Assembly: GCA_000002445.1 (NCBI GenBank)
Contig: CP000071.1
Coordinates: forward strand, 1,024,001 to 1,088,000
Direction: 5' to 3'
DNA: 64,000 nucleotides
Origin: Trypanosoma brucei
Taxonomy: Eukaryota
The position numbers and the translations under genes were made by a program. Positions within the stretch are counted from its first letter, which is position 1, and every line of letters starts with the position of its first letter. The notes below the pieces were generated by a model. That model was given only the letters and a program-made list of their open reading frames with translations, was not told the origin of the DNA and did no database searches. Of this stretch, positions 12,193 to 51,176 are shown piece by piece.

Positions 12193-12471
<279 letters not shown>

Positions 12472-22955: not shown

Positions 22956-24728
22956 ATGAACTTCTCTGGTGGAAACAAGGAAGGACTGGACAAGCAGTCT
23001 TATACAAGTGTTCCCCCGGGGACACGAGAGGAGGAAATTCAGAATTCAGGGAACCTTGCCGTTAAGCAGCCCACTGTTCCAACTCTTAGTTCTGCCACCG
23101 CTTCTCCAGCGAACACAGCAGCGGGTGAGTTAAATGACCCTCGCCCTCACAACACCGTCGCCTCTTCTGGTGCTGCCGGTTCTGTGGGACATCTGCAGGT
23201 GGAGCGAAAACAAGAGTGCGATGATCAGCAACCAATGAAATCGCCTACGCCCTTAGAGGAGACCCTGAATACTGTGACACAATATTTGGTTCAGAGGGAC
23301 GATCTTCCAACCATTCCATTGTTGCAACAGCAGGCACTGCTTTTAGGAGAGGTACCTGACTTAAAGGAAGTGCCAGAACCTTCACAAACGGTATTTACGC
23401 CTCCGAAGGAATACGGGGACGAAACGGGCCCGTGGGGATCCTTTTTGAGTCTAAAGAAGGCCACTGGAGAGACAGTTTTTGGAATGATGTCTTTTTACGA
23501 TCAAGTTATGAAGCTGCAGGTTACACATGAGAAGGAGGCCGCATCCTACCGAGAAGCTGCTGAACATACGGTTAGCCAACAGCGTCAGACCATTGAGGCA
23601 CTCACTTCCGAGTGCAGGATTTTACGTTCGAGAAATGACCGTATGAGGACCATCATTGATAAAACAAATCAACAACTCAAACAGTGGGAAAGCGAAAACA
23701 GCGAGCTAAATAAAAAGCTAAGAGAAGTTGAACAGCGTTGCGCTCACGTTGAAGACCGCGCGGTAGTCGCGGAATGTGGTCGGAAGATGCTTGAACTGCG
23801 CCTCCGGGAAGTAGAAATGTCGTTAAACTACAGCACAGATGCAGTCAACAAGCTTAGAAAGAGCTTGAATGAGGCGAACCGGGACAGGGATCACGCCCTA
23901 CAAGAACAGTATAATGTTTATGAGGCAAACAGAAGGGATATGATCGAGTTCTATGATAGACGCGAGAGGGAACTGGTTCACGAATTTAACGAAACGGTGA
24001 CTAAACTTCAAGATATAATGTACAACGCCATGAAGGCTCATGAAGATAAGTTGAGGGAGTGTTGGAATGATATGCAGCGTCTTCAGCAAGAGAAACATGA
24101 AGAGTCTATCAAAGAGCTCAACATACTGAGGGAAAAAGAAGAACGAGACTATAACGCAAGAATTTCACGGGTGGAGCAAGACAATCAAAGGCGATACGAA
24201 CAGTATCGTAGCGAGATGGCACTTCTTGAGCAGCGTCAGAGGGAACGGGAAGAACACTTGTTGATGGATATATCGCAAAGGGAAAGGGAGCTTAGTGAAA
24301 GGGAGCAGCGGCTTCGCGTACAGCGGACACAGGATGAACAAGACACGAAGATAGCTTTAATGGCTAAAGAGACGGAAGTGAAGACATACTATGAGAGACT
24401 AATGGAAAACATGCGGTCGGCGTTCGACAAGGAACGTGAGAAGATGTGCACCTTCTTCCGGGAGCAGGTGCAGGAAATATCTCAGCTCCATCTGGAAAAT
24501 GAACGGCAACTGGAACGGACGCACCGGGACAAAGAGAGAGAAATGGCACAGCGATATCGTATCGCGGGGTATGAGGCTGAGGATCGCAGAGGGAACGTGG
24601 AGCTTCGCGATGTTTCCATGGCGACCCAGTCTGCGCTCCTATCAAAATTTGACGCTATCGAGGCACGGCAGCGCGAACGTGCAGAAAAGGCCCGTGCTGT
24701 ATTTCAAAATCAACCCGAATCGAAGTAA
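22956..24728 (+). CDS. Coiled-coil hypothetical protein (590 aa). It is the last gene of the + strand unit before the strand switch.
   Basis: The N-terminus is rich in S, P, T and A. From about aa 170 onward the sequence is a continuous charged heptad-like stretch rich in E, R, K and Q, as in structural or cytoskeletal proteins. No enzyme motif was recognised. Confidence 0.5.
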   Translation: MNFSGGNKEGLDKQSYTSVPPGTREEEIQNSGNLAVKQPTVPTLSSATASPANTAAGELNDPRPHNTVASSGAAGSVGHLQVERKQECDDQQPMKSPTPLEETLNTVTQYLVQRDDLPTIPLLQQQALLLGEVPDLKEVPEPSQTVFTPPKEYGDETGPWGSFLSLKKATGETVFGMMSFYDQVMKLQVTHEKEAASYREAAEHTVSQQRQTIEALTSECRILRSRNDRMRTIIDKTNQQLKQWESENSELNKKLREVEQRCAHVEDRAVVAECGRKMLELRLREVEMSLNYSTDAVNKLRKSLNEANRDRDHALQEQYNVYEANRRDMIEFYDRRERELVHEFNETVTKLQDIMYNAMKAHEDKLRECWNDMQRLQQEKHEESIKELNILREKEERDYNARISRVEQDNQRRYEQYRSEMALLEQRQREREEHLLMDISQRERELSEREQRLRVQRTQDEQDTKIALMAKETEVKTYYERLMENMRSAFDKEREKMCTFFREQVQEISQLHLENERQLERTHRDKEREMAQRYRIAGYEAEDRRGNVELRDVSMATQSALLSKFDAIEARQRERAEKARAVFQNQPESK

Positions 24729-27700
24729 TCATCTGGTGTTGTGGTGGCGCATGTTGCGTCTAATCACTGACATGTCGGCTAAGTTGCTTGCTTTAGCGAA
24801 ATATAGGTGCACGTATGGTGTTATATTACTACATCTAGCTCCCGCAGAAGGGGAACGCTGCTACTTATGTTTCCCTGCGTGATCGTCTCTGTCTTGTGTC
24901 AGATCCCATGGCTCCCTTATCAGGGGTTTCTGCCTGACCAACTTTTTCCATCGGTCTTACGCCTATCCATTTGCCGCTGCGCTGTTAGTTGATGGAACAA
25001 CAGATTCCCCTCGCTGTACGGTACTGCCGAGAAGCGTCGTTTCCATGCCTCTGTTACCACTGGCGCCTAGCTAGATCTGGGAAATATTCTGCTGTGCCAG
25101 GTTCGTATCGATGTTTTTTATAATTTTCGACCCGAGAGAATCAGAGGAACAATTCCTCCCTTGTTGTTGTGCATTTGCGAGGGGCGGAGAACTCTCACGC
25201 CGTCTGGGTACCGTAGACGTCCGTTCCACATACGCACTCACGCATCATTCCCTACTGGAGTTGATATGGCTGTCTGCTTTGTTTTATGCAAACCCAATGA
25301 AACGGAGAGCCTTAGCGGCTGTGAGTGCGGCGACGACCACAGTCTGCTCCGTTGACGGAACGGAGTACCCATTTTGAGTTACTCATTGCTGTCGAAGAAG
25401 CCCCCAAATGTGGCTTTATTTAGTTCATGAGCTCGATGGGTGGCTCGCCTCATGTCCGCGACAGTGTTGCTGCGCCTGCCACGTCGTGCTGATGTTGTTG
25501 AAGGAGCTGTAGCGGTGGGAGGCTGATGGGGCCGCGCCATTTTAACGAGTCGTGGCGCATGCTATGAACTTTGGTATTGGACAAAAGTGACCTCACCCAC
25601 ATGTTTTATCCCGACTGCAAGTGCTCAATGTTGCAGTGGCGAGCCCCGGTGCAGGGTGGGGCACAGCTGCATACCAGAACTTGTGCTCTAACACTTTGCT
25701 ATTGGATGGGCGTGCGCGGCATGCTTCCATTTTTTAATTAGTTCCCTCTTTGCTCTCCACTGAGTTGAATCACAGTGCACTACCCACCACATTCTTGTCA
25801 CCAAGCACAACCCTAGTTGTTCCCGCTTCTTCAAAATTTTGTTCTCTAGTTCCGATGACCAATGAGCTCATGCGTCCTGTTGCCTACTTTTGGGATTCAG
25901 TGCTGCAGTGCGTTGCGCCCAAATCTGACAAAAAAACTCGGACACCTAAAAAATGTAGTGAGCATAAAACCAAATCGATATACCGCTGCACCAACGCCGA
26001 GACGTTGCCTTCCACATTTTGGTTTTGCAACAATAGTGCGGCTGGCCAAAAGGCAGAAAAAATTGCACCGCAACGACAGAAAGCTAAAAGGGTGCATTTC
26101 TCCGAGAAAATAAACGTAGTACTCATTCAGGGTATAAATAGAGGTAGCGTGTAGAGAAGCGGAGTTGCGCTTTGCCTCCTGGTGGCGAGTCGGGCCTCCG
26201 TGGAGAGGTTGTTCGAAGTTGGTGTCGATGTGGAGGAAGAAGTATGAAGCAAATTGCGGAGGACGCCTACTGTCCGTTTCCATCCACACGCACCCTTGTT
26301 AAAGGGTAAGGGATTGCAAAGTTATACAAATTCTTTAATGTATGCTGAAGGGTGCATCTTGAAACTTGAACCGCTGGTTATCCCTGAAGCCGGGTTCCAC
26401 CCTGTTCTCTATCAAATAATTGCGGCGAATGATCGGGTTCAACTGGTGCGTGCTGGAGTGTAAACGACCACGGGAGGACGAAGCTCCTTGCGAATTTGGA
26501 AAAAAGCATCCCTATGTGTGCGTGGTATGGAAGCAAGGGTGCGACAAAACGCGTTCCACGAAGTCTGGGTATAATCGAGCTGGAGAATTTCCACATAAAA
26601 ACAGTTCCATATAACTAAATTTGGACTCATGCTGGCAACTCATTTTCACGTGCATATTACATTTTGTTACGAATATTAAAGTGTGCAAGATAAATCATCT
26701 TTTTCCCCTTTATCTTCCGTCCAACCAAAGGAGCGCGCGCATACAGTAGCTCAGAGGCATGGAATGCTTCACGTTGCATTCCCCGCGTAAGGAACTCGGT
26801 GGCTGACAGCTCCGATGGCGGTGCCCATTTAATAAGGGATCATTTGAGTACTGTGGAGAATTTTGTTCTAGGTGTGAGCTGATTTCACGCAAGCGTGATG
26901 GGAAAGCGCGAACCACTGATTAAGCACTTCGGAAACAAAGCGTGAAGCTTGGGGGTGTGACACTCAGTCATTCGACGTCGATGCAACAGCCGTAGCCATT
27001 CAACAAGTTTCCCCCTATATCCGCCAATACCTACGAACGAAAAGATGGGTGGGGGACCGATCGCGTTCCTTCAACGTAAAAGCGTATATTTAATGTCATC
27101 TCAAACACCCCTACAATTTTTAGTTGAGGAGCATGTGTGCATCCAGAACCTGCGTGCGCGGGTGAATAACGCCTTTGGTTCAGTATTTTGACTTAGAGTT
27201 GGACGTTTCCGGTGGATCGTCATTACCGAAAGTCTCTCTAGTGAACCCGGCACCGCCCATGCCAATTACTCCGTCCATGGACGGCGCGCCTTTCTAGTTC
27301 GGTTGCGTTCCGTTGGTTCAAAACCTCATACCGCTCCGATAGGTCCGTATACGCGCTTAAAAACGTTTTGGCACACGCATTGCGACATCAGCTGGAGAGT
27401 GCGATCGTCAGCAAAGAATGGATCCCCGTCACCATTGGTTTCGCTTATATTCGTTCATTCCCAGCGGAAACGAGAACTGGAGATAGAAAACAACCGGCAT
27501 CCACCCTTCTGTCAACTCCACCGATGGTGGTCGAATGCTTTCCGCTTACTACGTCACCACCCTTCGAAGTTTTGGAATAAGCTTTTTCACTATGTGTGCA
27601 ACTTTAAAGCGCATCAGCATGATTCGTTCCAGTCCTTCGCCCGTGTCGCATAGCTCTTTCCGCTCAATCGCTGACCTTTCATCATAAACTCCTCCATTTC

Positions 27701-29325
27701 GTTTCGCGCCTCATCACTCTGCCCTTCCGCCGGTTGTTGGATGTGCTTGTGCTTTAACCATAATCCGATATCGCACGCGTTCCCGCGGGGCGCGCACCTC
27801 AGCGGGGTTGTTGCTACATTTCAAATTTTGCACGAGCTTCCCCACAAGTAGCCTATTCCATGACATTTTCTTCTTCACCTAGATATGCTGAGCCATTTTC
27901 TCATTTCGATCCGGTCCCTCCTGGTGTTCCCACATTGGATCGCCGGTTCGGGTCACCCCAGCTATTTCCTCCACCTCCCTCCTTAACGACAACTGCAGAG
28001 TCGAGGAGGCCGTTGCTTGTGTCTTTTTGTCTCCCGGGCTCATCCCGCTCCTTCACCAACCCCAAGTGCACTTGGTTGCCGACATTTCTGCTTACACTTG
28101 TGTTCCGGTGAGTTCATCCCCCGGGCGCACGCGGCGCTGCGCATCCCGCGGCTGAGAAAACTGAAGAACTCGGCCGTGGGCAATCCGACTCAGGTATCGT
28201 CGGAATCCCCGATGACCTGCGACCTTTCCTAGTATATCAGGCTGCCGAGCCAAGGGATGAAGAATTACCCTCTTGTCATTCATTTAGCGGCGGCGGCATA
28301 GCCGCTGGGCACTTTTCACGCTTTTTTTTTTATCCTCCATATCTTTCACGTGGCACGCCAGGTTTTCGCTATGTTCAATCTCTACTGTTGTTTTCGGTAC
28401 CCACCCCGTTACCGCGCAGTCTTCTCAATCCCCACCCCCACAACCTCATTACCGCACTTTCCCTCCTTAGCCCAGATGTCGCGGCTCTTTGGCTCCGATG
28501 TTCGTTTCAGGCCGGCGTCGCCATACAAAGGCCTTGATCCAGGCTTATCTCCCCCAACCGTCTCGTTGCCCAACGTTCCTCACCCCTTTTCTTCACGACC
28601 GACAACTATAACTCCGACCAATCGCCATAGCCCCGTGCCTTTCTGCTTTCCCTGACAATGGCCGCTGTTTCAGCGTGCCGTCAGGCGCCGATGCACCTTT
28701 AGCGGTGAACCCAAACGGGCAAATACAACTCTGTTTTTGAATTGGCTGTGGGAGGAGGGTTTCGATATCAACTTACCATCGCTCACATAACCGATCCGTA
28801 TATGGAAAGGTATTGTCCCGGAGATCCCTCCAGTAATGGGAAGCCACACCGTTAACGGCATTATCCGCACCAAACTGCTTCGTTTCGCGCAGAATTCTCT
28901 AAGTTGCGATCTGCAGCGAGGGGTGAAGCTCATCCTTTTACGCGTGGGTTTCTTTGGGTAATGTTCCAATCGCAGCGCAATGAAAACTGCGAATCCTTCT
29001 TTTTTTTTTGTGCGTGTGTGTGTGGATACGTTCGAACTTTTCCCGACCGAACCGCATTATAAGATAAAGTTAGGACGAATATGCGGACAGGGACTCATCG
29101 TGCCTTTGGTAGTGACAGGCTCATTTTTTCCCTGTGGCATGAGCGTTAAGTATATAATTGTAACCACAGGTGTGGAAAATAGGAGAACGAACTTTTTTAT
29201 TTCCTAACGTTTTTTTTTTGTGATAGCTAGGTTTTCAAAAAGCTTAGCATGCATGCTGAAGGAACCGGCGAAGTCATCGGCGAGCGGGAGTCAGATGGCC
29301 CCCCCTTCCCTCCTCCGGAAAACTA

Positions 29326-29397
29326 AGGACCCACCCGGGTTTGAACCGGGGACCATTCGGACTGCAGCCGAATGCTCTACCACTGAGCTATGAATCC
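29326..29397 (-). tRNA. tRNA-Cys (anticodon GCA), left copy. It is the innermost element of the left palindrome arm.
   Basis: The reverse complement is GGATTCA-TA-GCTC-AGTGGTA-GAGC-A-TTCGG-CTGCAGT-CCGAA-TGGTC-CCCGG-TTCAAAC-CCGGG-TGGGTCC-T. The cloverleaf has a 7-bp acceptor stem (with 2 G·U pairs), a 4-bp D-stem, a 5-bp anticodon stem, a 7-nt loop with U33-GCA-G37, a TTCAAAC T-loop and a U discriminator. A TTTT Pol III terminator follows. Confidence 0.85.
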
Positions 29398-29539
29398 AAG
29401 GGCCCGAACACAACAGAAAACGTCGTATTATTATTATATTTTACGGTTCAGCGAAGTTATTTTCAGATAAAAGTAAAAAAGGAACATGCTTCACGATAAA
29501 AATATTAACTGCTGAAATAATTTGATATACCCTCCACGT

Positions 29540-29611
29540 GGATTCATAGCTCAGTGGTAGAGCATTCGGCTGCAGTCCGAATGGTCCCCGGTTCAAACCC
29601 GGGTGGGTCCT
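29540..29611 (+). tRNA. tRNA-Cys (anticodon GCA), right copy. It is identical to the left copy and oriented head-to-head with it.
   Basis: The sequence and cloverleaf are identical to the left copy, with the 5' ends facing each other across the 142-bp spacer. It is followed by TTAGTTTTCC, a T-run terminator. Confidence 0.85.
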
Positions 29612-32600
29612 TAGTTTTCCGGAGGAGGGAAGGGGGGGCCATCTGACTCCCGCTCGCCGATGACTTCGCCGGTTCCTTCAGCATGCATGCTAAGCTTTTT
29701 GAAAACCTAGCTATCACAAAAAAAAAACGTTAGGAAATAAAAAAGTTCGTTCTCCTATTTTCCACACCTGTGGTTACAATTATATACTTAACGCTCATGC
29801 CACAGGGAAAAAATGAGCCTGTCACTACCAAAGGCACGATGAGTCCCTGTCCGCATATTCGCCCTAACTTTATCTTATAATGCGGTTCGGTCGGGAAAAG
29901 TTCGAATGTATCCACACACACACGCACAAAAAAAAAAGAAGGATTCGCAGTTTTCATTGCGCTGCGATTGGAACATTACCCAAAGAAACCCACGCGTAAA
30001 AGGATGAGCTTCACCCCTCGCTGCAGATCGCAACTTAGAGAATTCTGCGCGAAACGAAGCAGTTTGGTGCGGATAATGCCGTTAACGGTGTGGCTTCCCA
30101 TTACTGGAGGGATCTCCGGGACAATACCTTTCCATATACGGATCGGTTATGTGAGCGATGGTAAGTTGATATCGAAACCCTCCTCCCACAGCCAATTCAA
30201 AAACAGAGTTGTATTTGCCCGTTTGGGTTCACCGCTAAAGGTGCATCGGCGCCTGACGGCACGCTGAAACAGCGGCCATTGTCAGGGAAAGCAGAAAGGC
30301 ACGGGGCTATGGCGATTGGTCGGAGTTATAGTTGTCGGTCGTGAAGAAAAGGGGTGAGGAACGTTGGGCAACGAGACGGTTGGGGGAGATAAGCCTGGAT
30401 CAAGGCCTTTGTATGGCGACGCCGGCCTGAAACGAACATCGGAGCCAAAGAGCCGCGACATCTGGGCTAAGGAGGGAAAGTGCGGTAATGAGGTTGTGGG
30501 GGTGGGGATTGAGAAGACTGCGCGGTAACGGGGTGGGTACCGAAAACAACAGTAGAGATTGAACATAGCGAAAACCTGGCGTGCCACGTGAAAGATATGG
30601 AGGATAAAAAAAAAAGCGTGAAAAGTGCCCAGCGGCTATGCCGCCGCCGCTAAATGAATGACAAGAGGGTAATTCTTCATCCCTTGGCTCGGCAGCCTGA
30701 TATACTAGGAAAGGTCGCAGGTCATCGGGGATTCCGACGATACCTGAGTCGGATTGCCCACGGCCGAGTTCTTCAGTTTTCTCAGCCGCGGGATGCGCAG
30801 CGCCGCGTGCGCCCGGGGGATGAACTCACCGGAACACAAGTGTAAGCAGAAATGTCGGCAACCAAGTGCACTTGGGGTTGGTGAAGGAGCGGGATGAGCC
30901 CGGGAGACAAAAAGACACAACCAACGGCCTCCTCGACTCTGCAGTTGTCGTTAAGGAGGGAGGTGGAGGAAATAGCTGGAGTGACCCGAACCGGCGATCC
31001 AATGTGGGAACACCAGGAGGGACCGGATCGAAATGAGAAAATGGCTCAGCATATCTAGGTGAAGAAGAAGATGTCATGGAATAGGCTACTTGTGGGGAAG
31101 CTCGTGCAAAATTTGAAATGTAGCAACAACCCCGCTGAGGTGCGCGCCCCGCGGGAACGCGTGCGATATCGGATTATGGTTAAAGCACAAGCACATCCAA
31201 CAACCGGCGGAAGGGCAGAGTGATGAGGCGCGAAACGAAATGGAGGAGTTTATGATGAAAGGTCAGCGATTGAGCGGAAAGCCTAACCACCGCAGACCCA
31301 AACAAGACGTCGTACCGTGGGCTTCGACAATTCTCACAGGCGCCAGGGATATGGCAGATCCTGTGGCGCCGCTAGGGAGATTTTTCACGATGACAGGAAT
31401 GTTGTTGCCCATATTTGGCCAGTGGAACGAGCAACGGGTGTGCGGTCGGGGCTGAAAAGGAAGGATAGGATGAAGACGGTAAGGTACTATTATAATCGTG
31501 TGTTCAAAACAAGTTTGTGGAGTGGGAAAGGTATTTGGCGTTGTGTTTGTGTGTGCGGAGAGATGGGATACGCTCATTCCAGTAAACTATGAGAAAGGTT
31601 TATCCTTAGGCTCACGGCCGAGCTGGGACGTGGGTGGTGCAGGCGGAATTACGCCGGGCCACCAATCCCACTACAAACTGTATGGGACAAAGGGCCTTAT
31701 TACACATCTTACGCGCGGCCACGCATCTAAGACAGCACGAGAGTGACAGGTGAAAATAAGGCCGCTGCAAAGAGGAGTGGATGCTTTTATGCACGCCACA
31801 GCAGCGGGCTGTTGAGGTTATCTGGTACTTAGACTTGTGGAATTCGGTCTCAACCCGAAAAGACTGGCAGTAAACTGAAGTTTGCCGTCCGCCAGTGAGC
31901 AGGTTACCGTTAAGAGGCTCAGGCTGGGCACACCATTGGCAGTTGTGGCCGCACCGACGGCGTCTACGCGACACAGCTCTCCTTTAAAGAGAATCATCCC
32001 AACACACAATTCCCGTACCTTCCCACATTGAGTTACAGCCGGTCTGAACACCCATGCGCTTATTAAGCCTTATTGGTGTACGCGCAGCGCGCCACTGCTA
32101 GTGAACAGCTTCTTTTTCAAAAAAAAACTTTCCACAGCTCTGCGCAATGCCAAATGGTATTTTCATAGGGCTGCCGCCCCAGTAGGTCTCCTTGTGAAAT
32201 TCACTTTTTTTGAACTGGTGTTTTCCCGACAGCTCCTGATTCCTTGTCCCTCAACAGGCGGTTGGTAGGTAAATCCAGGTATTAATCCAGCTGCCAGACG
32301 TTTCGCCCATTTCCTCCCAGCCTTACCTCAATATTTAGGACAGCAAAACCCGCACCGAAATTGTATAAGACATGCACAAATGCAAGCCACCCTTTAATTA
32401 AAATTCGTCCAATCGATCCCACTGCTTATATGTCGAGAGAATAAAACACAAAACGCGGTCACTTCATAATCGCAAAATCATCCAGTTTTGCGCAAAAGCG
32501 TATCATTACCTCCCTACCCCAAATCTCCCTCGACATATTTTGATTACTCTTACGAGCACTCACGTGTCACAAAAGCAAGTGCAAAAAAAAAAGCTCTACT

Positions 32601-33496
32601 GATCTCGAAGAAGCCCAACTGATGCAATACACCCCTCCCCCACAATCAAAAACGAAATTGCCATTTAATCGCCCTCGTGCAAATCATATCAGCTCTAGTG
32701 CAGCTATTACGCTTACGGTGTGGGCCTTTCCCCCCTTACAGTTTCCATTCAAGGGGAAAGTAAGCATTACCGTGGTTAAAAAAACCACCATAAGGCGCAA
32801 AAACGTACCGGCACGCATGCTCAACCGAAAAAGAAAAACACACCCCCACCCACCTAACCAACATACGGAACTGTACAATACGCCTGATGATGGCGGGAAT
32901 GGGGAAAGATATGGGGCATGAAAAAAAACTCTTTTCCCGTCAGTATGGTATGCATCACACGGCGCATGCACCCCAAACATCCCAACGAAAGATGTCCTCC
33001 TGCGGGAAAACAGAAGGTCGGATAGCAACTACATCATTTTCATACAACCATCTAATATAACTTTGTGAAGGCAAAAATCAAAGTGTGGTAGAAAGAAAAG
33101 GTTGAGAGAACAAGGTTGTGTGGCATGTTCCGCAAGATAATGACAGCAAGTGACGCAGAGCCGGGTAGCGGCACACACACACACACACGGCAGCGGTTGG
33201 CCGCACATAAGAAAGTTTCCAGCATCAGGCCTATAAGGCTATTCACGTTTTAGAATTGTTGGATCAAAATAATGAGAAACGAAAAAGAAAAGATTCAGAA
33301 GGGCAAAAAATTGAAGAAACCTTAGATTCAACCGTTAGGATGCCGCATAATGAGGAAGGAACGCAATATGGTTACAACCTCGGTGCGCACTGCCGCTTAC
33401 TCCCTATTGTTGTTATTGAAATATGGCATATAACAAGAAAGGAAACCCACGTCCACTTTGCTAAACCCACACCACCCACACGAATGTAATCGTGTT

Positions 33497-34561
33497 TTAC
33501 ATTTTGGAAGTGCGCGGGAGCGCCGGGAGCCCCTCATCAGCCAACTTGCAGGAGTTGAGCTTCTTGAACGAGCGTTTGGCACAACCGTTGGCATACAACA
33601 CATTGTAGACCTCATGGCATATGGGGAGGTGCACGTTGTGCTTCTTGGCGAGTCGCTCCAGCGGCTCAGCGGTTGCAACACCCTCAGCAACGGCCTTGCT
33701 GGTGCGCTTGATCTCTTCGAGGGAAATGCCTTGGCCGAGCTTCATGCCCACCGTAAAGTTACGTGAGAGTTCTGAAGAGCAGGTGAGCAATAAGTCACCG
33801 AGGCCGGGAAGGCCGAAGACAGCCTCACCCGTGCCGCCAAGTGCCAGGGTCAGGTCACGGATTTCGAGAAGACCACGAGAGATGAGGGCAGCGCGGGCAT
33901 TGTTCTCAGTTCCAAGTCCCTTTAGTGCACCTGAGGCAATGGCAAGCACATTCTTCATGGCGCTTGCGATCTCGCATCCGATAACATCGGTGGTTGCCCA
34001 GCAACGGAAGGAGCCGTCGGATGTGGTCATGATTTTCTGAATCTTTCGTGCCATGTTGATGTCGGCCGCGGCAGTGCAAACATTTGTCAGCATTCCCTTA
34101 GCAACTTCAATGGCGAATGAAGGGCCAGCAATAACACCGATTGGATAGTTGGGCAGGAACTCCTCCAAGATCTGTGCGGGGAAGAGGAGGGAGGAGCGCT
34201 CGATGCCCTTGCTGCACATCACCACGGGCACGTTGCGGGAAACAACGTGGTTGCGGAGGATGTGGCTGTTCTTCTGGAGGAACCCGCGGAGGAACTGCGT
34301 CGGGATGACGAAGAGGACAATCTCCGCACCTTTCGCGCACTCCTCAGCATCGGCCGTGAAGGTAAGGTTAGCTGGAAGCGGTGCACCGGGAAGGAAATAT
34401 ACGTTTTCGTGCTTCTGGTTCACAACACGGGCCTCATTGGCGTTCATATGCCATACGGACACAGACTCACACTTCTTTGCAAGGACGCACGCCAGAGCGG
34501 TACCGAAGGCGCCACTGCCGAACACCGCACCGCGCTTCAGATATGTCACACCGGAGACCAT
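33497..34561 (-). CDS. GPDH: Glycosomal NAD-dependent glycerol-3-phosphate dehydrogenase, 354 aa with a C-terminal PTS1 -SKM
   Basis: The protein starts [24 protein letters not shown], which is the GxGxxG Rossmann NAD-binding motif. The GPDH family core follows (…GPSFAIEVA…KNVLAIASG…[14 protein letters not shown]…) and the protein ends …ALPRTSKM. The computed ORF extends 57 codons further upstream (to 34732), but that stretch has no protein-like character. M34561 gives the 354-aa length typical of trypanosome glycosomal GPDH. Confidence 0.85.
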
Positions 34562-35271: not shown

Positions 35272-38178
35272 TCATTTGCTTTCGATTGAGGCGTAACACA
35301 CTACGTAGATGGCACCATAGCCGTGATTGTCAAACCCAGATGGATTCTCCCACGCGGTGGTATTGTCATCTTCACCCGCTACCAGCGCCACATCCCGATA
35401 AGTCACGCGATCATTCTCAGGGCAATCGTCATCACAGTAACATTTTGTTCGTGGACCCGAAGAGTTTACAAACCTGTAAAAGTGCACGCTTTCGCTTCCC
35501 AACCTCAGTACAGACGTATTAGAGTGAAATTTCAGCGTTACACGCAGCCCAGCCCGCTTTGCATCATCACCTGCTGGCGTATCGCTCATGCTGGAAGGCT
35601 GCGACTCGGAGAACTGAATGGACTCAGTGTATGTAACATGCTTGCCACCACCCCATACGTAGCATAGATGTACCACCGCTCCAGTGTAGAGTGCGTGCGA
35701 ACCCCTGTATCGGAAAGCAACGGAACTTGTGCTGTCATTTCCCGAAAGCGCTGTAGAATTCAGGACGGTATTCGGTTTATTGCTCAATGGTGGGCACACC
35801 TTCGTCTTCGTACCGAGCATGACATCGTCCTTAAACACAAGAACTGTGTCCTCGCTGGCGTTTAACCCTCGGCCTCTGAATGTCGAATTCAGCGATACTT
35901 CACCAACACGCCACACATCAGGACTATGGCCAGAGTGCTTGACCACCTGATCTTCCGCCTCAAATACAATATTCGCTGCTGACAACTCCCTGCCTTTATG
36001 CAACACGGGTATATACGTTTCCGCACCGTTCTTTGCACACAGGATGTACTCCACGTTGGTTGAGGCACCGAAAATACTCACTGAATTCTCAAACCGCGCA
36101 GAGACATAGTCATCTTCATTCTGCGGCAACTCGCAAGCTGATGTATATCTGTTATTAATTAGGCAGAAGTGGAAAACACATCTCTCCCATGAGCGCACAA
36201 GTTTCATGTCGGAGGGCATGATACCTGATGACAGTGTTACAGTGGCCGTTTCCTTGAGAGTAAGCTTACCGTCTGGTAGTTCGAAACGAAGATCATACTC
36301 ACTCACATATAAATGGTTCTTCCCACAATTGCCATTTGTGGGTTCCATTGTGCCTTGCGGGCGTGCTACAGACCATACACCAAGTGATCGGATGTAATAA
36401 CACACTTTCAGACATTGGTGCGCCTCACCAACAACATCGTACCTGTATACTGTTCCTTTCTCCACTTCAAAACCGTTCTCGGCACGGAATTTATTGGACT
36501 GCATACCATGAGTGCACTCCGTATCAACAGAAACGAAATACACTGTATCCGCAGCGGAGAGATCATGCCCATGGAATGTCATGGAACCCGTTTGTCCACC
36601 ACGCAGAGGATACGGTGCGAGTTCGAAGGAGGGATTGCGGTCGTTGATAGTGATTCTCCCATTCACCTCAGCGGCATTCAGAGACCCACTCTTTCGGTAA
36701 CACACTCTCAGCATGCCACCACCGTTTGAATCAGGGTCTACAACAACTCGACACCTTGGTGTGTTCCCATTCCTTAACGAGCAGTTAAACCTTGTCACAC
36801 CATCTTTTTCGTGATCCCCACACGTGTCCAATGACACGAAGGCGGAGTCCCGCGTAGCATCAAGACCCGTGCCATTAAGCTCAATTTCCACCCTTTGCCC
36901 AATGACAACTGCGGGTGATACCACTGTGAAGGATGTGGGCTGAAGTACCTCTATCGTAAAATACGATTCCTGCGATTCGTCACCGTCGCCAATCCTTCGC
37001 AACTTACTCCATTCGTTGGAGGAGTGATTGTAATAGCATACATTACCCTCCATTTTATCATCAATAAGCATTTTAGTTGAAAAATTGACTCTCGCCATCG
37101 CATTCTCAACACTAATTTTTCCAACCTGTAGACCATATAGTAACGGCGCTTTGTCTGAGCAAGCCGAATCTTTCTGTACAATTATTATTTTATCTCCCTC
37201 AGTGGGAGTACTACCACCATGAAGTTGCAGGTAACCTTCCTCACGTGCCTGTGGTCTCACGGGTATTGTGCTGTATGTGTTGGTATTAGTGGCCTCAAAA
37301 GTAATGATTGCTCCGGTATTGTCTTTTTTGCCGTCCTCAACTGCGGTGTATGACCTTTCCTGATGTGAGGGGTTGCTACATGCCTCTGCTCCGGCACCGC
37401 AGTATGATACACAGATGGCAAAGGTTTTCTTGGTCGACGACGGTTGCAGGGAGAAGGTTCCCGTGATCCTTCCTGTTCCAACACCCTCCAGCTCATTCAA
37501 TTCGATGGTGTCTTCACTTGCCTTGGCACATAATTCTGAGACATGACTGGCATCACTACATTCCTCCACATTTCCACAGGGGAAAAGGAAGATGGTACGG
37601 TTTCCACCGAAGCCGCTGTTGACGGGGCGTCCCTTCTGTGCTGTTTCCTCCACAGTGAGGCGGAAGAGATCCAACCCATGGGGACTTGGTTCTACACTCA
37701 AAGAAAAATCCCTGTAAAGACTTGGCCATACATCCAATTGAGAGCCATCTCCTCCAGAATCCACACGCTTTGCAGGGAAGGTCTTGTTACCAGACACATA
37801 ACATACACCGTATTTATCCCCCACAGTAAAGATACTACTGCGCACTGTGAACGCCCCCTTGGCATTACCACCGTCGTGATCGACAGTAGAGACGTTGAAG
37901 ATATCATCTGGAATTGGTTTGCTATTACAATTTTTGGCATTTTCCTGTCGCACAAAATAAAACATATCAGTGCTAGAAAACTTCATGTCATCATTACCAT
38001 CACTGGAACCCTTGCTGAACTCTACTTGTGCGGTTTGATGTAGTGAGAGTTGCACAGCATCTGTAAGCTTGAACTCTACAGTGGCCATTGCTTTACCCAC
38101 AATAACCAACAGAATCACCGCAAGTAAAGTAGACAGATTCAGACGTCCATGTCTCACGCACTGATTAGTATAGCTCAT
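35272..38178 (-). CDS. Large secreted or luminal cysteine-rich glycoprotein-like hypothetical protein (about 968 aa from M38178; the ORF is open to 38304)
   Basis: It has a predicted N-terminal signal peptide (MSYTNQCVRHGRLNLSTLLAVILLVIVGKAMA|TVEF). Cys residues and many N-x-S/T sequons occur throughout. There is no C-terminal hydrophobic or GPI-like segment, as the protein ends …VVCYASIESK. The beta-rich composition suggests repeated Ig-like or lectin-like folds. Confidence 0.5.
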   Translation of the reverse strand: MSYTNQCVRHGRLNLSTLLAVILLVIVGKAMATVEFKLTDAVQLSLHQTAQVEFSKGSSDGNDDMKFSSTDMFYFVRQENAKNCNSKPIPDDIFNVSTVDHDGGNAKGAFTVRSSIFTVGDKYGVCYVSGNKTFPAKRVDSGGDGSQLDVWPSLYRDFSLSVEPSPHGLDLFRLTVEETAQKGRPVNSGFGGNRTIFLFPCGNVEECSDASHVSELCAKASEDTIELNELEGVGTGRITGTFSLQPSSTKKTFAICVSYCGAGAEACSNPSHQERSYTAVEDGKKDNTGAIITFEATNTNTYSTIPVRPQAREEGYLQLHGGSTPTEGDKIIIVQKDSACSDKAPLLYGLQVGKISVENAMARVNFSTKMLIDDKMEGNVCYYNHSSNEWSKLRRIGDGDESQESYFTIEVLQPTSFTVVSPAVVIGQRVEIELNGTGLDATRDSAFVSLDTCGDHEKDGVTRFNCSLRNGNTPRCRVVVDPDSNGGGMLRVCYRKSGSLNAAEVNGRITINDRNPSFELAPYPLRGGQTGSMTFHGHDLSAADTVYFVSVDTECTHGMQSNKFRAENGFEVEKGTVYRYDVVGEAHQCLKVCYYIRSLGVWSVARPQGTMEPTNGNCGKNHLYVSEYDLRFELPDGKLTLKETATVTLSSGIMPSDMKLVRSWERCVFHFCLINNRYTSACELPQNEDDYVSARFENSVSIFGASTNVEYILCAKNGAETYIPVLHKGRELSAANIVFEAEDQVVKHSGHSPDVWRVGEVSLNSTFRGRGLNASEDTVLVFKDDVMLGTKTKVCPPLSNKPNTVLNSTALSGNDSTSSVAFRYRGSHALYTGAVVHLCYVWGGGKHVTYTESIQFSESQPSSMSDTPAGDDAKRAGLRVTLKFHSNTSVLRLGSESVHFYRFVNSSGPRTKCYCDDDCPENDRVTYRDVALVAGEDDNTTAWENPSGFDNHGYGAIYVVCYASIESK

Positions 38179-38759
38179 GTTTCCAACCAAACAACCGTAA
38201 CACCCTTGCGAGGTACTGCGCGCAATAGCAGTGTTGTATGCGTTCCTTGGCGTACAAACAACCAATAATATCCGCTTCTTCTTCACGTCCGCTTCCGTAG
38301 CCACTACCGCGGAACAAATTTGGGGAGATAACTAAAATGTTTTAGCACTACCTGTTTTGCTTTAGGAATATGTAGCGCCGATAATGTGATCCTTCTTTCC
38401 TGCGTTGCTGTTGGCTTAATTTTACTTCGATCCTGCTTTCGTTACGTTTTTGTCGGATGTGTGGGTGTGTGTATTTTTATGTGTTTATATGTGCCTAACA
38501 CAATGGGACAAACCAAATAGGAACGTCGCCGTAACACACACCCAAACAGACACAACAGAAGAGTTTTGTGCGTTTTTTGTGGATTTTTTTTTCTATGGGA
38601 TGGTGACGAGAACGCCAATATTCGTTAATGCGAGACGGTATTTACTCACGTGATCAAAATGTCGTGAAGGGAATGTACAGCTTCCCTTAAAACGACAAAG
38701 CCTATGGTTGATTTTCAAATAATAATAATAATAATTAAAGACCAAAGTAAGAAAAAAAG

Positions 38760-41060
38760 GAAAAAAATGAAGAGAAAATTTTGTTTTCTTCCTTGCCTAC
38801 CTCCTCCCCCCTTTTTGCTTACTTTCTATGTGTCCTAAATTAGTTTTGCAAGGTGAAGAACCTAGTGATTGATATGTTTCAATCTTTGTAAGGCAGGGTG
38901 ATGTCGTGCGAATGTATTTGTATGCGAAGGAATTATAGAAAGAAGAAACCAGAGAAAGAGAAAGAGGGAAAGAGAGAGAGAGAGACAAGAGGAAGTACAA
39001 TTAAAAATGACAGAAATAACATCAGAGAGAATGAAAGCAAAACAAAACAAAAAAGGAAGAATGCAGTGCGTGAAATTAAGTAAATAAAAAATGGGCACAC
39101 AATGCACGAGCAGACGCACACACATATAATAAAGATGGGTAGTAAACAGAGACAAATGCGATTCAAAATCGTAAGGGCATCAGTTAGGAGGGAGAGGGCA
39201 AGGATAAATAGACATAAAAAAGAAAATGCATGAGCCAGAAAAAAACGGCTGTTGCCAAGCGTGTGCATCCGCAAGGACGAAAGAAGTAGAACAAACCAGT
39301 TAGAGCAAAAACAACAACAGAAACGCAACAACAACAACACACACAAACACAAAAAAAACACATAAACTTCGGTAGGAACACCTTTTGCACGTATAAATAT
39401 ACTTATATATATAAATACATGCAACTTGATGAATGAAGCGGGAGAAAAAAGTAGAGAGAAAGAGGGAAACAATCACAGCATTAATGATAACAATAACAGC
39501 CGATGGCTAAGGTAAATAGAAATCCCCCTTCTCTTTCCTTCTTTTTCTCCCTTTTCACATACGCATGCACCTGAAGAATTGGTGTGATGACAGGAAACTA
39601 GTTCGATGCTAGAAAAGGGTGGTGGGGAAACTACAAGAGAAAGAAAAAAAAAGGGTAAAGGTATAACAAACAAGAAGCCTTCTCTATCTCATGTGCTTTT
39701 CTTTTTAAATTTTTTTGTATTCTATTTTAAATCTAAGTTACGTATATATTTATACATATATATATATAAATATATACGCATGCATTAAACTTTCCCCATT
39801 TTTTCCATTCCCTTCCCTTCCTCACAATCATTTCCTTCTCTGTCATTTCTTTCCCTTAAACACTCACTTTTACTCCTTTTTTTCTTTAAATAACAATAAT
39901 ATAATGGTATAAAAATACCAAATGTACGACGCAAGGTTATTGGACGTTTCTTCTAAGTACAAAAAAAAAAGACACAAAATAAAGTGGAGGCTTCGGTTCA
40001 CCAATTCGATTGAAACAAAGACGACAACAAAAAAAAAAGAAAAAAGAAACAAACTGTTACAAGCTATAGAAGGGACACGGGATGAGAACTGACGCTGATT
40101 AAAAAAAAAAAGGACAACATCAACGACAACAGAACAAAAACGTGATGGAATATGGCGTGTCAAATTAGACGGCAAAACAAACAATAACAGTAAAAACGGC
40201 AACACCAATAGTGAAAAAAAAAACAATTAGTGTCAAACAAAAAAAAAAAGAAAAAACGAAACGAAACTACGGCAACAAACAATAGTAATAATAATAGTAA
40301 TAATAACTTTCGCCTCAATTTCCTTCTTTCCTTAACTCACTTCCATTCATCCATTCATTCACTCATTCCCTTCGTCTTCTTCATTCTTCTTCAATTACTT
40401 TGCACGTGCGTGTGTACATGTATTTTTCTTCCTGCTTCCGCATTTGTGTGCTTGTTCGCCTTTTCTCCAAAAGCAAACAAAAAGAAGGGAGAGAGAGAGA
40501 GAGAGAGGGGGGGGGGGGGCGGGAAAGAAAAAAGAAAAAAAAACATATAGACGGATTTTTAAACTTTCGCCTTGTCTCTCCGTCTGTTCGACTTTCTGGT
40601 GTAAATGTTTCATTTCGTCATCTTTTCTTCACTCACTCACGCAACACAAATTCAAATACAAAAGTACAGATACCGTCACAGTTCAACCACGTCGCAAGTA
40701 AGCAAAGTAACGAAGAACGAAAAAAAAAAAGGGAGAAAGAAAAAAAAAATTACAACAATACGAAATGCCAAACAGATGAGGGTTAGAAGATGAACAACCA
40801 AGTGGCATCCAAGCAAACGGGTAACCAAGAGGCGGTTGTTCATATATATATATATATATGTGTGTGTATATATAAAGGAAAAAAGAGAACTAACCAATAA
40901 TAATCAAATTATTGTAATTGTAATAACAACAGCATCCGCAGCTGCAGGAAAAGGAAAAGAAAAAAAGTCCGGAAAAGAAAAGCAACAACAACAACGACGA
41001 CAACACAAAGCAGATGAAAACAACAACAATAACCAAAGTAGATATGGACAAGTAGGATTC
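38760..41060. repeat. Purine-rich (on the + strand) low-complexity intergenic tract with embedded (AG)n, (TA)n, (CAA)n and poly-G runs
   Basis: Visible compositional bias: runs such as agagaaagagaaagagggaaagagagagagagaga, (ta)n at about 40845-40866 and G13 at about 40507-40519. On the - coding strand these are polypyrimidine tracts, the UTR and processing signals for the MAPK and the secreted-protein gene. All ORFs here are low-complexity artefacts. Confidence 0.6.
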
Positions 41061-41069
41061 TTCACGAGG

Positions 41070-42185: not shown

Positions 42186-42189
42186 TGCT

Positions 42190-50700: not shown

Positions 50701-51170
50701 CTATCTCCTTTCACTTTTACTTACTTTCTTGCTGTACATGAATCGATTTATGAGCATGTTCGCTTGTATGTATGGACGTGTGGAGATAACAAAGCATGGT
50801 AGGAAGCAATTTCGGAATACGAACCATATTGTCAGAAACCTTTCTTCCATATATATATATATATATATATATATGTCTCCTACCACTGTTTTCTTTTCTC
50901 ATTTTAACCGACACGCTCGACATCTTTCTTTTTCCCCCTTCTACTGTCTTGACCAGTTGTTGTTCACGTATCATTTTTCATATATATTTATTTTTCATGA
51001 TGATAAAAGTAAGTGTGTACTGCTGTGGTGATAGTGGTGGTAGTGTGGGGCGGGTGGATGGTAGCCGGAGAGCATAATGAAGGTGAATCCACGAACAGAG
51101 CAATCTGTTAGCAGGCAAAACAGCGGTTCGCAAAGGGGGAAAAATATTAGTAACAACAACACCAACAACA
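47720..51170. repeat. Low-complexity A/G-rich 3.4-kb intergenic tract with (CA)n, (TA)n and poly-G or poly-C microsatellites
   Basis: (ca)n lies at about 49318-49334 and 50319-50345. (ta)n lies at about 50396-50418 and 50848-50874. G10 lies at about 49034-49044 and C10 at about 48778-48790. The overlapping ORFs here translate to poly-F, L, C and S artefacts. Confidence 0.5.
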
Positions 51171-51176
51171 ACTGCA

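What the first reader, a model, noticed from the sequence alone, without database searches (positions are those of the whole stretch)
27861..28040. Palindrome arms differ by a few SNPs that cluster at the outer ends, so this is not a trivially duplicated contig end
By manual comparison, the reverse complement of 27861-28040 differs from 30890-31070 at three positions (G/C, G/A and A/G). The inner roughly 1.3 kb of each arm, covering the ORF pairs at 28017-29207 and 29730-30920, appears identical. A poly-T at 28322-28331 and a poly-A at 30606-30615 are both 10 nt long. An assembler-generated fold-back would be 100% identical. Real palindromes, such as the primate Y-chromosome palindromes, show exactly this pattern: arms are homogenised by intrachromosomal gene conversion and divergence rises toward the outer boundaries.
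Basis: seen in the sequence. Interest (0 to 1): 0.5.

Follow-up and report, generated by a model that had tools for sequence, protein, structure and literature searches.

The report
Known trypanosome palindrome carrying two tRNA-Cys genes

Summary
The window is Trypanosoma brucei TREU927 chromosome 8. The palindrome has arms at 27656-29398 and 29539-31281 (1743 nt each) and a 140-nt spacer. It lies at the centre of a convergent strand-switch region. The bias toward the outer end is not significant. The outermost 211 nt are identical and the boundary is abrupt.

Each arm starts at its inner end with a tRNA-Cys(GCA) gene. By a published count these are the only two tRNA-Cys genes in T. brucei. 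The rest of each arm looks non-coding.

The repeat is already published as Tb927_08_IR5 (1,743 bp, 5 mismatches), a weak source of Argonaute-bound small RNAs (Tschudi et al. 2012).

The comparison with T. b. equiperdum IVM-t1 and T. b. gambiense appears to be new. At 20 sites both arms of one strain share one state and both arms of the other strain share another. At no site is a difference arm-specific across strains. This supports arm-to-arm gene conversion, if the arm sequences of the assemblies are right.

The spacer is inverted in IVM-t1 and diverges about tenfold faster than the arms. Both points need long-read confirmation.

Verdict: real, ordinary for this genome, already known.

The parts
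27656..29398 (.). Palindrome arm A (1743 nt). Its + strand is pyrimidine-rich (58% C+T), like the sense strand of the polycistronic gene cluster on its left.
   Evidence: boundaries, 5 mismatches, no indels; composition
29399..29538 (.). Unique central spacer, 140 nt, 33% G+C, not self-complementary. It is inverted in IVM-t1 relative to TREU927 and DAL972. It differs from the other two strains at 12-14% of positions, mostly within about 25 nt of the 29399 end. 29480-29538 is nearly invariant.
29539..31281 (.). Palindrome arm B (1743 nt), the reverse complement of arm A apart from 5 mismatches.
29326..29397 (-). tRNA-Cys (anticodon GCA), copy 1. Its 5' end lies 1 nt from the inner end of arm A. 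It is transcribed leftward, head-on to the + strand gene cluster.
   Evidence: ARAGORN; Rfam RF00005, 64.7 bits; A box TAGCTCAGTGG and B box GGTTCAAACC
29540..29611 (+). tRNA-Cys (anticodon GCA), copy 2, identical in sequence to copy 1. It is transcribed rightward, head-on to the - strand gene cluster.
29615..29618 (+). TTTT run 4 nt after tRNA copy 2, a likely RNA polymerase III terminator. Its mirror image for copy 1 is at 29319-29322 on the - strand.
   Evidence: read directly from the sequence (60 nt downstream); a T-run follows all trypanosomatid tRNA genes (PMC2695483)
27867..28016 (.). Outer group of three arm differences: 27867 T (partner 31070), 27957 C (partner 30980), 28016 C (partner 30921). 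At the first two, arm A carries the state found in no other sequence. At the third, arm B does.
29030..29075 (.). At both, arm A carries the state found in no other sequence.
28322..28331 (+). T10 tract, with its mirror A10 at 30606-30615. Further T10/A10 pairs are at 29000-29009 / 29928-29937 and 29210-29219 / 29718-29727. Their lengths vary between strains.
22956..24728 (+). Last gene of the left, + strand gene cluster: a conserved hypothetical protein of 590 aa (XP_847183.1 / AAZ13117.1).
33497..34561 (-). Last gene of the right, - strand gene cluster: glycosomal glycerol-3-phosphate dehydrogenase, 354 aa (XP_847184.1 / AAZ13118.1). Its accession number directly follows that of the left gene, which suggests that no protein is annotated between them.

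Best explanation
SHOWN. This is the published long inverted repeat Tb927_08_IR5 of Trypanosoma brucei chromosome 8. It is a genuine 3,626-bp palindrome at the centre of a convergent strand-switch region. Each arm consists of one tRNA-Cys(GCA) gene at the inner end plus 1.67 kb of downstream sequence that looks non-coding. The two tRNA genes point away from each other across a 140-nt A+T-rich spacer.

INFERRED FROM THE STRAIN COMPARISON. The arms stay near-identical through recurrent recombination between them within the chromosome. New mutations are either erased or copied to the other arm, so the arms change together over time. An occasional crossover would flip the spacer. The five mismatches in this genome are recent single-arm changes, or possibly allelic or consensus noise. 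They are not a gradient of divergence toward the outer ends.

INFERRED FROM GEOMETRY AND LITERATURE. The locus supplies what a published count gives as the only two tRNA-Cys genes in the genome. It places an RNA polymerase III gene head-on in front of each incoming RNA polymerase II gene cluster, in a zone where polymerase II terminates. The RNA read from arm A by the left cluster and the RNA read from arm B by the right cluster have the same sequence; they are not complementary. Double-stranded RNA therefore forms only when a polymerase runs past the centre and copies both arms into one hairpin. That would fit the low published yield of small RNAs from this repeat.
For: IDENTITY.
- The flanking proteins are 100% identical to T. 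brucei TREU927 XP_847183.1 and XP_847184.1, which lie on a 2,481,190-bp contig.
- Tschudi et al. 2012, Table 3, lists Tb927_08_IR5 with a repeat length of 1,743 bp, 99% identity (5 mismatches) and 1,390 AGO1-bound small-RNA reads. This matches exactly.

CONVERGENT REGION. All long ORFs left of 24.7 kb are on the + strand. All long ORFs right of 33.5 kb are on the - strand.

tRNA GENES.
- ARAGORN and Rfam find two tRNA-Cys genes.
- T. brucei has exactly 2 tRNA-Cys genes and L. major has 1 (PMC2695483).

THE PALINDROME IS REAL.
- It has the same boundaries in IVM-t1.
- Its centre is present in DAL972.
- An OVI contig breaks 31 nt into arm A.

CONCERTED CHANGE.
- Arm versus arm within a genome: 5 and 8 differences. 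Between strains: 23-30.
- At 20 sites both arms of one strain differ from both arms of the other. With DAL972 arm B as the third sequence, 10 of these are derived in both TREU927 arms, 8 in both IVM-t1 arms, and 2 have three states. No site shows an arm-specific pattern shared between strains.
- Between strains the arms diverge at about the rate of the non-coding flanks: 1.2-1.4% against 0.5-1.1% substitutions.

SPACER. It is inverted in IVM-t1: 120 of 140 positions match the reverse complement, against 78 of 140 in the direct orientation.

NON-CODING ARMS. There are no Pfam or further Rfam matches. Strains differ by frame-breaking indels.

HAIRPIN. An RNA spanning the whole palindrome folds with 97.6% of its bases paired.

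CHROMATIN. Inverted repeats and convergent regions are enriched in histone H3.V, and their siRNAs increase when H3.V is lost (PMC4721609).
Against: - No reads were available, so arm sequences in every assembly may have been partly homogenised by consensus building or polishing.
- IVM-t1 was built from MiSeq reads plus about 2.4-fold PacBio coverage (my arithmetic from the published read count and mean read length), polished with Pilon and ordered against TREU927. Its arm differences and spacer orientation are therefore of limited reliability.
- DAL972 lacks arm A (gap at L003 15204-15303). It gives one arm only.
- Four of the 20 concerted sites lie within 8 nt of each other in a T-run/GT-repeat region (29006-29013) and may be a single event.
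- IR5 was not one of the two repeats that the authors verified by PCR.
- The termination and roadblock role, and the link between low siRNA yield and geometry, are inferences. No data for this specific locus were examined.
Confidence: 0.8

Rival explanations
1. The five arm differences are not arm-specific. They are heterozygous alleles of the diploid genome placed in one arm or the other by a mosaic consensus, or they are plain consensus errors. On this reading the arms of each haplotype are identical. This rival concerns only the mismatches and is compatible with the palindrome being real.
For: - All five are singletons. The odd base is found in one TREU927 arm only and in none of the other four arm sequences.
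- They fall in two short patches of 150 nt and 46 nt (nearest-neighbour P = 0.026). This is what one would expect if a stretch from a different clone or haplotype entered the consensus.
- Four of the five odd bases are on arm A.
Against: - The same five mismatches were counted independently on the same reference, but that does not test them.
- IVM-t1 also shows a handful of arm differences.
- Nothing here distinguishes the two readings.
Confidence: 0.3
2. The palindrome, or its near-identity and apparent concerted change, is an assembly artefact. It could be a fold-back chimera, or two diverged copies collapsed and polished with pooled reads.
For: - Short-read and low-coverage assemblies cannot resolve 1.7-kb inverted repeats.
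- DAL972 has a gap in arm A, and the OVI contigs stop at or near the arms.
- IVM-t1 was polished with short reads that map to both arms.
- IR5 was not verified by PCR.
Against: - Two assemblies made with different technologies have both arms with identical boundaries.
- DAL972 independently shows arm B, the spacer and the start of the inverted tRNA copy.
- The arms are not identical in either assembly.
- Pooled polishing would have to pick the non-reference base in both arms at all 20 sites. At 10 of them DAL972 agrees with IVM-t1 against both arms of the Sanger-finished TREU927 sequence.
- Two other repeats of the same class were confirmed by PCR.
Confidence: 0.06
3. The arms are alike simply because the inverted duplication is very recent. 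There has been no gene conversion.
For: - No tRNA and no inverted repeat was found within 10 kb of the G3PDH gene in T. vivax or T. theileri, or within the 1.8 kb available in T. grayi.
- L. major has a single tRNA-Cys gene.
- The duplication is therefore young on the scale of the genus.
Against: - The palindrome has the same outer and inner boundaries in TREU927 and IVM-t1. DAL972 has arm B (including its outer boundary), the spacer and the first 38 nt of the inverted tRNA copy. The duplication therefore predates these lineages.
- Without conversion, the arms of one genome should differ at least as much as orthologous arms do between strains. The observed figures are 5-8 against 23-30.
- There are 18 polarised derived changes present in both arms of one lineage.
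Confidence: 0.05
4. Selection for a perfect hairpin at the RNA or DNA level, perhaps through RNAi, keeps the arms identical. This is the speculation of Tschudi et al. 2012. On this reading neutral recombination is not the cause.
For: - The authors raise this possibility.
- The locus yields AGO1-bound small RNAs.
Against: - Selection cannot by itself place the same new base in both arms at about 18-20 sites. A copying mechanism is still needed.
- Between strains the arms diverge as fast as the non-coding flanks, so the sequence itself is not conserved.
- IR5 gives few small RNAs, with weak dependence on either Dicer: 108% of wild type without DCL1 and 49% without DCL2.
Confidence: 0.1

Closest known systems
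Tb927_08_IR5, one of seven long inverted repeats of T. brucei (Tschudi et al. 2012, BMC Genomics 13:427, PMC3447711)
   Same: It is the same object. It is on chromosome 8, has a repeat length of 1,743 bp and 5 mismatches, and is described as a source of Argonaute-bound small RNAs.
   Different: In the passages and supplement searches I made, the paper does not mention several things: the tRNA-Cys genes at the arm tips, the positions of the mismatches, any comparison between strains, or the spacer orientation. IR5 was not among the repeats verified by PCR.
Primate Y-chromosome palindromes (P1-P8), kept alike by arm-to-arm gene conversion. The comparison rests on my own knowledge of Rozen et al. 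2003 and on the ape sex-chromosome paper listed, which I did not read.
   Same: Near-identical inverted arms surround a unique spacer. The arms within a genome are more alike than orthologous arms between lineages. There may be a spacer inversion polymorphism.
   Different: The scale is 1.7 kb, against 9 kb to 1.45 Mb. The arms hold a tRNA gene and sequence that looks non-coding, not testis-expressed gene families. The chromosome is an ordinary diploid, recombining one. No rise of divergence toward the outer boundary is seen here.
Hairpin-RNA (endo-siRNA) loci of animals and plants, for example the Drosophila hpRNA genes (cited in PMC3447711)
   Same: A long inverted repeat whose read-through transcript folds into a long double-stranded hairpin, which Dicer processes and Argonaute loads.
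   Different: There is no dedicated promoter here. Transcription would come from read-through of convergent gene clusters. The yield is low and depends only partly on Dicer. No target is known.
tRNA genes at convergent strand-switch regions of trypanosomatids, which mark the end of polymerase II transcription (L. major chromosome 3; PMC2695483)
   Same: tRNA genes lie exactly between two converging gene clusters. About 35% of T. brucei tRNA loci sit in such regions.
   Different: Here the tRNA is duplicated as a mirror-image pair embedded in a 3.6-kb palindrome, so each cluster meets a head-on copy. Termination at this particular locus was not examined.
Flip-flop inverted repeats, such as the chloroplast inverted repeat and the yeast 2-micron plasmid (my own knowledge)
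   Same: Recombination between inverted copies both homogenises them and inverts the segment between them.
   Different: No site-specific recombinase is indicated. The inversion rests on one draft assembly.

Membership tests
T. brucei long inverted repeats that yield siRNAs (Tschudi et al. 2012, IR1-IR7) | Two inverted copies of 422 bp or more on one megabase chromosome, essentially identical in sequence | tested here: met
   1743-nt arms with 5 mismatches and no indels. This is the same length and mismatch count as the published IR5.
T. brucei long inverted repeats that yield siRNAs (Tschudi et al. 2012, IR1-IR7) | Located on chromosome 8 of TREU927 at about 1.048-1.060 Mb | tested here: inconclusive
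   The flanking proteins are TREU927 chromosome 8 proteins on a 2,481,190-bp contig. The window's absolute coordinates could not be read.
T. brucei long inverted repeats that yield siRNAs (Tschudi et al. 2012, IR1-IR7) | Produces AGO1-bound small RNAs of 22-25 nt | not testable with these tools
   Taken from the literature only: 1,390 reads in wild type, 108% of that in dcl1-/- and 49% in dcl2-/-. The capacity to form a hairpin was confirmed by folding: 97.6% of bases paired.
Palindromes kept alike by arm-to-arm gene conversion (Y-chromosome type) | Near-identical inverted arms around a unique spacer that is not itself palindromic | tested here: met
   The spacer shows only chance-level self-complementarity.
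Palindromes kept alike by arm-to-arm gene conversion (Y-chromosome type) | Arms within a genome are more alike than orthologous arms between lineages, with derived changes shared by both arms | tested here: met
   5 and 8 differences within genomes against 23-30 between strains. 20 concerted sites against 0 arm-specific sites. Caveat: this rests on assemblies, not reads.
   The outermost 211 nt are identical. Mean-position test P = 0.28. The IVM-t1 differences are evenly spread.
Palindromes kept alike by arm-to-arm gene conversion (Y-chromosome type) | Spacer inversion polymorphism caused by crossover between the arms | tested here: inconclusive
   The spacer is inverted in IVM-t1 relative to TREU927 and DAL972. 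No assembly's spacer orientation could be verified without reads or clones longer than 1.9 kb.
Convergent strand-switch / transcription termination region with tRNA genes (trypanosomatids) | Two gene clusters converge and one or more tRNA genes lie between them | tested here: met
   ORF orientation. tRNA genes.
Convergent strand-switch / transcription termination region with tRNA genes (trypanosomatids) | Enrichment of H3.V, H4.V and base J, and loss of polymerase II signal at the site | not testable with these tools
   Only a general statement that inverted repeats and convergent regions carry H3.V (PMC4721609).
Functional nuclear tRNA gene | Cloverleaf with anticodon, internal A and B boxes, and a downstream T-run | tested here: met
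   Rfam 64.7 bits against a threshold of 29. ARAGORN calls Cys GCA. A box, B box and a TTTT run 4 nt downstream.

The most novel reading that the evidence does not exclude
The palindrome behaves as a natural flip-flop element. Frequent recombination between its arms keeps the genome's only two tRNA-Cys genes identical. The same recombination inverts the spacer, so that both orientations circulate among Trypanozoon strains. It also goes with repeated breakage and repair at the centre, seen as roughly tenfold faster divergence of the spacer, concentrated at one end. If confirmed with arm-resolved long reads, this would be, as far as the searchable literature shows, the first demonstration of concerted evolution and inversion polymorphism at a long inverted repeat in T. 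brucei. It would also replace the published idea that RNAi or hairpin selection maintains these repeats.
Probability: 0.4. Interest if true: 0.4.

Novelty: already known. Interest (0 to 1): 0.22.

Why it matters
The locus itself adds nothing new. It is a catalogued inverted repeat of a well-studied parasite genome. The cross-strain comparison adds modest value in three ways.

1. It gives a simple mechanistic answer, gene conversion between the arms, to the question that the 2012 paper left open: why are these repeats so nearly identical?

2. It shows that the only two tRNA-Cys genes lie at the arm tips, each facing an incoming gene cluster.

3. It flags a possible spacer inversion and a fast-evolving centre. 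Both could be checked easily with existing long-read assemblies.

For the scan, the lesson is that hand-counted mismatches in one sub-interval gave a misleading picture of where the differences lie.

Tried and rejected
- **Homologues of the 590-aa flanking protein in T. rangeli and T. conorhini.** They lie in a different gene neighbourhood with no tRNA, so they are uninformative about the age of the palindrome.
- **G3PDH neighbourhoods in T. vivax, T. theileri and T. grayi.** No tRNA-Cys and no inverted repeat was found. T. congolense, the most useful outgroup, has no contig on record.
- **Exact-protein look-up of the 83-aa ORF that covers the three outer variants.** The aim was to find read-level assemblies carrying either haplotype. 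Nothing is on record.
- **Pfam scan of six ORFs in the arms and two in the flanks.** No credible match.
- **Rfam scan of 25000-33500 at a relaxed threshold.** Only the two tRNAs.
- **Bacterial promoter and terminator scan.** Not meaningful for a trypanosome. Ignored.
- **T. equiperdum OVI contigs.** One ends 31 nt inside arm A and the other 307 nt outside arm B. They give no arm sequence.
- **DAL972 sequence after its gap.** It matches nothing in the window, so arm A of that strain is unavailable.
- **tRNA-derived SINE or retroposon as the origin of the arms.** Considered because each arm starts at the tRNA 5' end and contains A10 runs on the tRNA sense strand. Rejected for lack of any other copy in the window, and because the A/T runs vary in length between strains like ordinary intergenic homopolymers.
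Full report
**1. The observation**

An inverted-repeat search finds one pair in the region. The arms are 27656-29398 and 29539-31281, each 1743 nt, with 140 nt between them. A base-by-base comparison shows 5 mismatches and no indels, which is 99.71% identity. A position x in arm A pairs with 58937-x in arm B.

The mismatches are at 27867/31070, 27957/30980, 28016/30921, 29030/29907 and 29075/29862.
- The true partner interval of 27861-28040 is 30897-31076, not 30890-31070.

Outside the arms, complementarity drops at once to chance level, so the outer boundary is abrupt. The outermost 211 nt of the arms are identical.

Simulations do not support a concentration at the outer end.
- Three of five mismatches in the outer 385 nt has P = 0.075, for an interval chosen after the fact.
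- A shift of the mean position toward the outer end has P = 0.28.
- The five sites form two tight groups, one near each end of the arm (nearest-neighbour P = 0.026, also post hoc).

**2. Where the window comes from**

Long ORFs are all on the + strand up to 24.7 kb and all on the - strand from 33.5 kb. The ORF at 22956-24728 is 100% identical to XP_847183.1 of Trypanosoma brucei brucei TREU927. The ORF at 33497-34561 is identical to its glycosomal glycerol-3-phosphate dehydrogenase, XP_847184.1. Both are recorded on a contig of 2,481,190 bp.

The window is therefore T. brucei chromosome 8. The palindrome sits in the middle of a convergent strand-switch region, where two polycistronic gene clusters meet. 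The two protein accessions are consecutive, which suggests that no protein is annotated between them.

**3. What the arms contain**

ARAGORN and Rfam each find exactly two RNA genes in the 64 kb. They are tRNA-Cys(GCA) at 29326-29397 (-) and at 29540-29611 (+). A relaxed Rfam scan of 25000-33500 adds nothing.
- The two tRNA sequences are identical.
- Each has A and B boxes and a TTTT run 4 nt downstream.
- Each begins 1 nt from the inner end of its arm. An arm is therefore one tRNA gene plus 1.67 kb of its downstream sequence, and the two genes diverge across the spacer.

A published census gives T. brucei exactly two tRNA-Cys genes and L. major one (PMC2695483). These two copies are therefore very probably the whole complement.

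The rest of the arm looks non-coding.
- No ORF in it exceeds 101 codons.
- None of its ORFs matches Pfam.
- Strains differ by 1-nt indels at 28029 and 28631 that would break the reading frames.

The + strand of arm A is 58% pyrimidine with T10 tracts. From my own knowledge, this resembles intergenic sequence on the sense strand of a trypanosome gene cluster.

**4. Already published**

Tschudi et al. 2012 surveyed TREU927 for long inverted repeats and found seven. Their Table 3 lists Tb927_08_IR5: repeat length 1,743 bp, 99% identity with 5 mismatches, and 1,390 AGO1-bound small-RNA reads in wild type. The read count was 108% of wild type without DCL1 and 49% without DCL2. The length and mismatch number match the window exactly.

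The authors verified IR3 and IR4 by PCR, but not IR5. They called the high identity a curiosity. They speculated about selection on a hairpin, or a role for RNAi, in maintaining it.

A later study reports that inverted repeats and convergent regions are enriched in histone H3.V, and that their siRNAs rise when H3.V is lost (PMC4721609). Further searches of the held library found no later work on how these repeats evolve.

**5. Is it real, and do the arms evolve together?**

I fetched the locus from other assemblies through the flanking proteins.
- T. b. equiperdum IVM-t1 (L005) has the whole palindrome with the same boundaries. Its arms differ by 7 mismatches and 1 indel.
- T. b. gambiense DAL972 (L003) has arm B, the spacer and 38 nt of the inverted tRNA copy. 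A 100-N gap follows, and the sequence beyond it is unrelated to the window.
- A T. equiperdum OVI contig stops 31 nt into arm A. This is where a short-read assembly would be expected to break at a repeat.

A five-sequence alignment of the arms gives these numbers of differing alignment columns, indels included:

| Comparison | Differences |
|---|---|
| TREU927 arm A vs arm B | 5 |
| IVM-t1 arm A vs arm B | 8 |
| Any between-strain pair | 23-30 |

At 20 sites both TREU927 arms share one state and both IVM-t1 arms share another. I used DAL972 arm B as the third sequence to infer direction. Ten of the 20 are derived in both TREU927 arms, 8 are derived in both IVM-t1 arms, and 2 have three states. 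No site shows a difference that stays with the same arm across strains.

Between strains the arms diverge at 1.2-1.4% substitutions. That is about the rate of the non-coding flanks, 0.5-1.1%. So the sequence is free to change, but it changes in both arms together.

This is the signature of gene conversion between the arms. It rules out a recent duplication without conversion, because the duplication has the same boundaries in these lineages and so predates them.

All five TREU927 mismatches are singletons. Four of the odd bases are on arm A and one is on arm B. They fit either young unconverted mutations, or allelic or consensus noise. The eight IVM-t1 differences are spread evenly along the arm.

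**6. The spacer**

In the 927-IVM alignment the spacer appeared 54% different. The reason is orientation. TREU927 matches the reverse complement of the IVM-t1 spacer at 120 of 140 positions, against 78 of 140 in the direct orientation. DAL972 matches TREU927 directly at 123 of 140.

The spacer is thus inverted in IVM-t1. A crossover between the arms would produce exactly this.

Even after reorientation the spacer differs from the other two strains at 12-14% of positions. That is about ten times the divergence of the arms. The changes are concentrated in the 25 nt or so next to one tRNA copy. The 60 nt next to the other copy are almost invariant.

Caveats apply.
- IVM-t1 was assembled from MiSeq reads plus about 2.4-fold PacBio coverage. 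That figure is my arithmetic from 7,508 reads of 8.5 kb mean length.
- It was polished with Pilon and ordered against TREU927.
- In any assembly, the orientation of a 140-nt piece between 1.7-kb inverted repeats needs reads or clone pairs longer than about 1.9 kb.

I treat the inversion as a lead, not a result.

**7. Age**

No tRNA and no inverted repeat lies within 10 kb of the G3PDH gene in T. vivax or T. theileri. The same holds within the 1.8 kb available downstream in T. grayi. L. major has one tRNA-Cys gene.

The inverted duplication therefore seems confined to the T. brucei group, or at most to close relatives that were not sampled. T. congolense could not be fetched.

**8. How it most likely works**

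*Shown.* A real palindrome, two intact tRNA-Cys genes, a position between converging gene clusters, and the ability of a full-length transcript to fold into a hairpin with 97.6% of its bases paired. The concerted change of the arms is shown at the level of the assemblies.

*From the literature.* Small RNAs are made from the locus at a low level.

*Inferred.*
- Each incoming polymerase II cluster meets a head-on polymerase III gene. tRNA genes at convergent regions are thought to help terminate polymerase II (PMC2695483).
- Arm A read on the + strand and arm B read on the - strand are the same sequence (1738 of 1743 positions). Convergent transcripts that stop at the centre therefore cannot pair with each other. 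Double-stranded RNA needs read-through past the centre. This would fit IR5 giving 1,390 reads where IR3 gives 372,045.
- From my own knowledge, a 140-nt unique spacer should also make cruciform extrusion and breakage less likely than in a perfect palindrome.

**9. Verdict**

The object itself is already known.

The cross-strain evidence for concerted evolution, the tRNA-Cys content and the possible spacer flip are small additions. They are worth a check with long reads but are not surprising to a specialist.

Noticed in passing
window 29399-29538; L005 15026-15163; L003 15030-15165: The 140-nt spacer of the palindrome is inverted in the T. b. equiperdum IVM-t1 assembly relative to TREU927 and T. 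b. gambiense DAL972. This is either a real flip caused by crossover between the arms or an orientation error in a draft assembly.
   Followed up: partly
window 29399-29425 versus 29480-29538: The spacer differs from the other two strains at 12-14% of positions, against 1.2-1.4% for the arms. Almost all of the divergence lies in the 25 nt or so next to one tRNA copy. The 60 nt next to the other copy are nearly invariant. Possible causes are repeated breakage and repair at the palindrome centre, or a conserved original 5' flank next to a junction created by the duplication.
   Followed up: partly
window 12195-12470: A perfect (GT)138 dinucleotide repeat of 276 nt lies just upstream of the 1083-codon ORF at 12869-16120. 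The repeat finder first reported it as an 8-nt periodic family.
   Followed up: no
L003 15204-15303 and beyond (T. b. gambiense DAL972, FN554971.1): The DAL972 chromosome 8 sequence has a 100-N gap that starts 38 nt into arm A. The sequence after the gap, which includes a gene with a PTP-like phytase domain, matches nothing in the 64-kb window. The scaffold therefore joins to a distant region, or arm A and the left flank are missing from that assembly.
   Followed up: partly
L008 2081-3145 and 10001-11065 (T. vivax, SOPI01000535.1): In T. vivax the G3PDH gene is part of a tandem duplication of about 7.9 kb. The 354-, 380- and 188-residue genes each occur twice, with a 503-residue gene upstream of each unit. 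The genes downstream continue on the same strand, so there is no convergent region within 10 kb.
   Followed up: no
window 6001-8000, 38001-44000, 48001-52000, 60001-62000: Blocks with 37-42% G+C lie in a window that otherwise averages about 48%. They appear to fall between long ORFs and may be long A+T-rich intergenic or UTR regions.
   Followed up: no
PMC3447711, supplementary file 3: In the passages returned by my search, the convergent transcription units on chromosome 8 run CTU27, CTU28, CTU30, CTU31. CTU29 did not appear. It would fall between 0.86 and 1.58 Mb, where IR5 lies, so this convergent region may have been counted under the inverted repeats instead.
   Followed up: no
L006 and L007 (T. 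rangeli, T. conorhini): The closest homologues of the 590-aa protein in these species follow genes for a capping enzyme, DnaJ, Rad10 and NF-X1. In T. brucei the upstream genes are MMS19 and thymidylate kinase. Either synteny is broken there or these are not orthologues.
   Followed up: no
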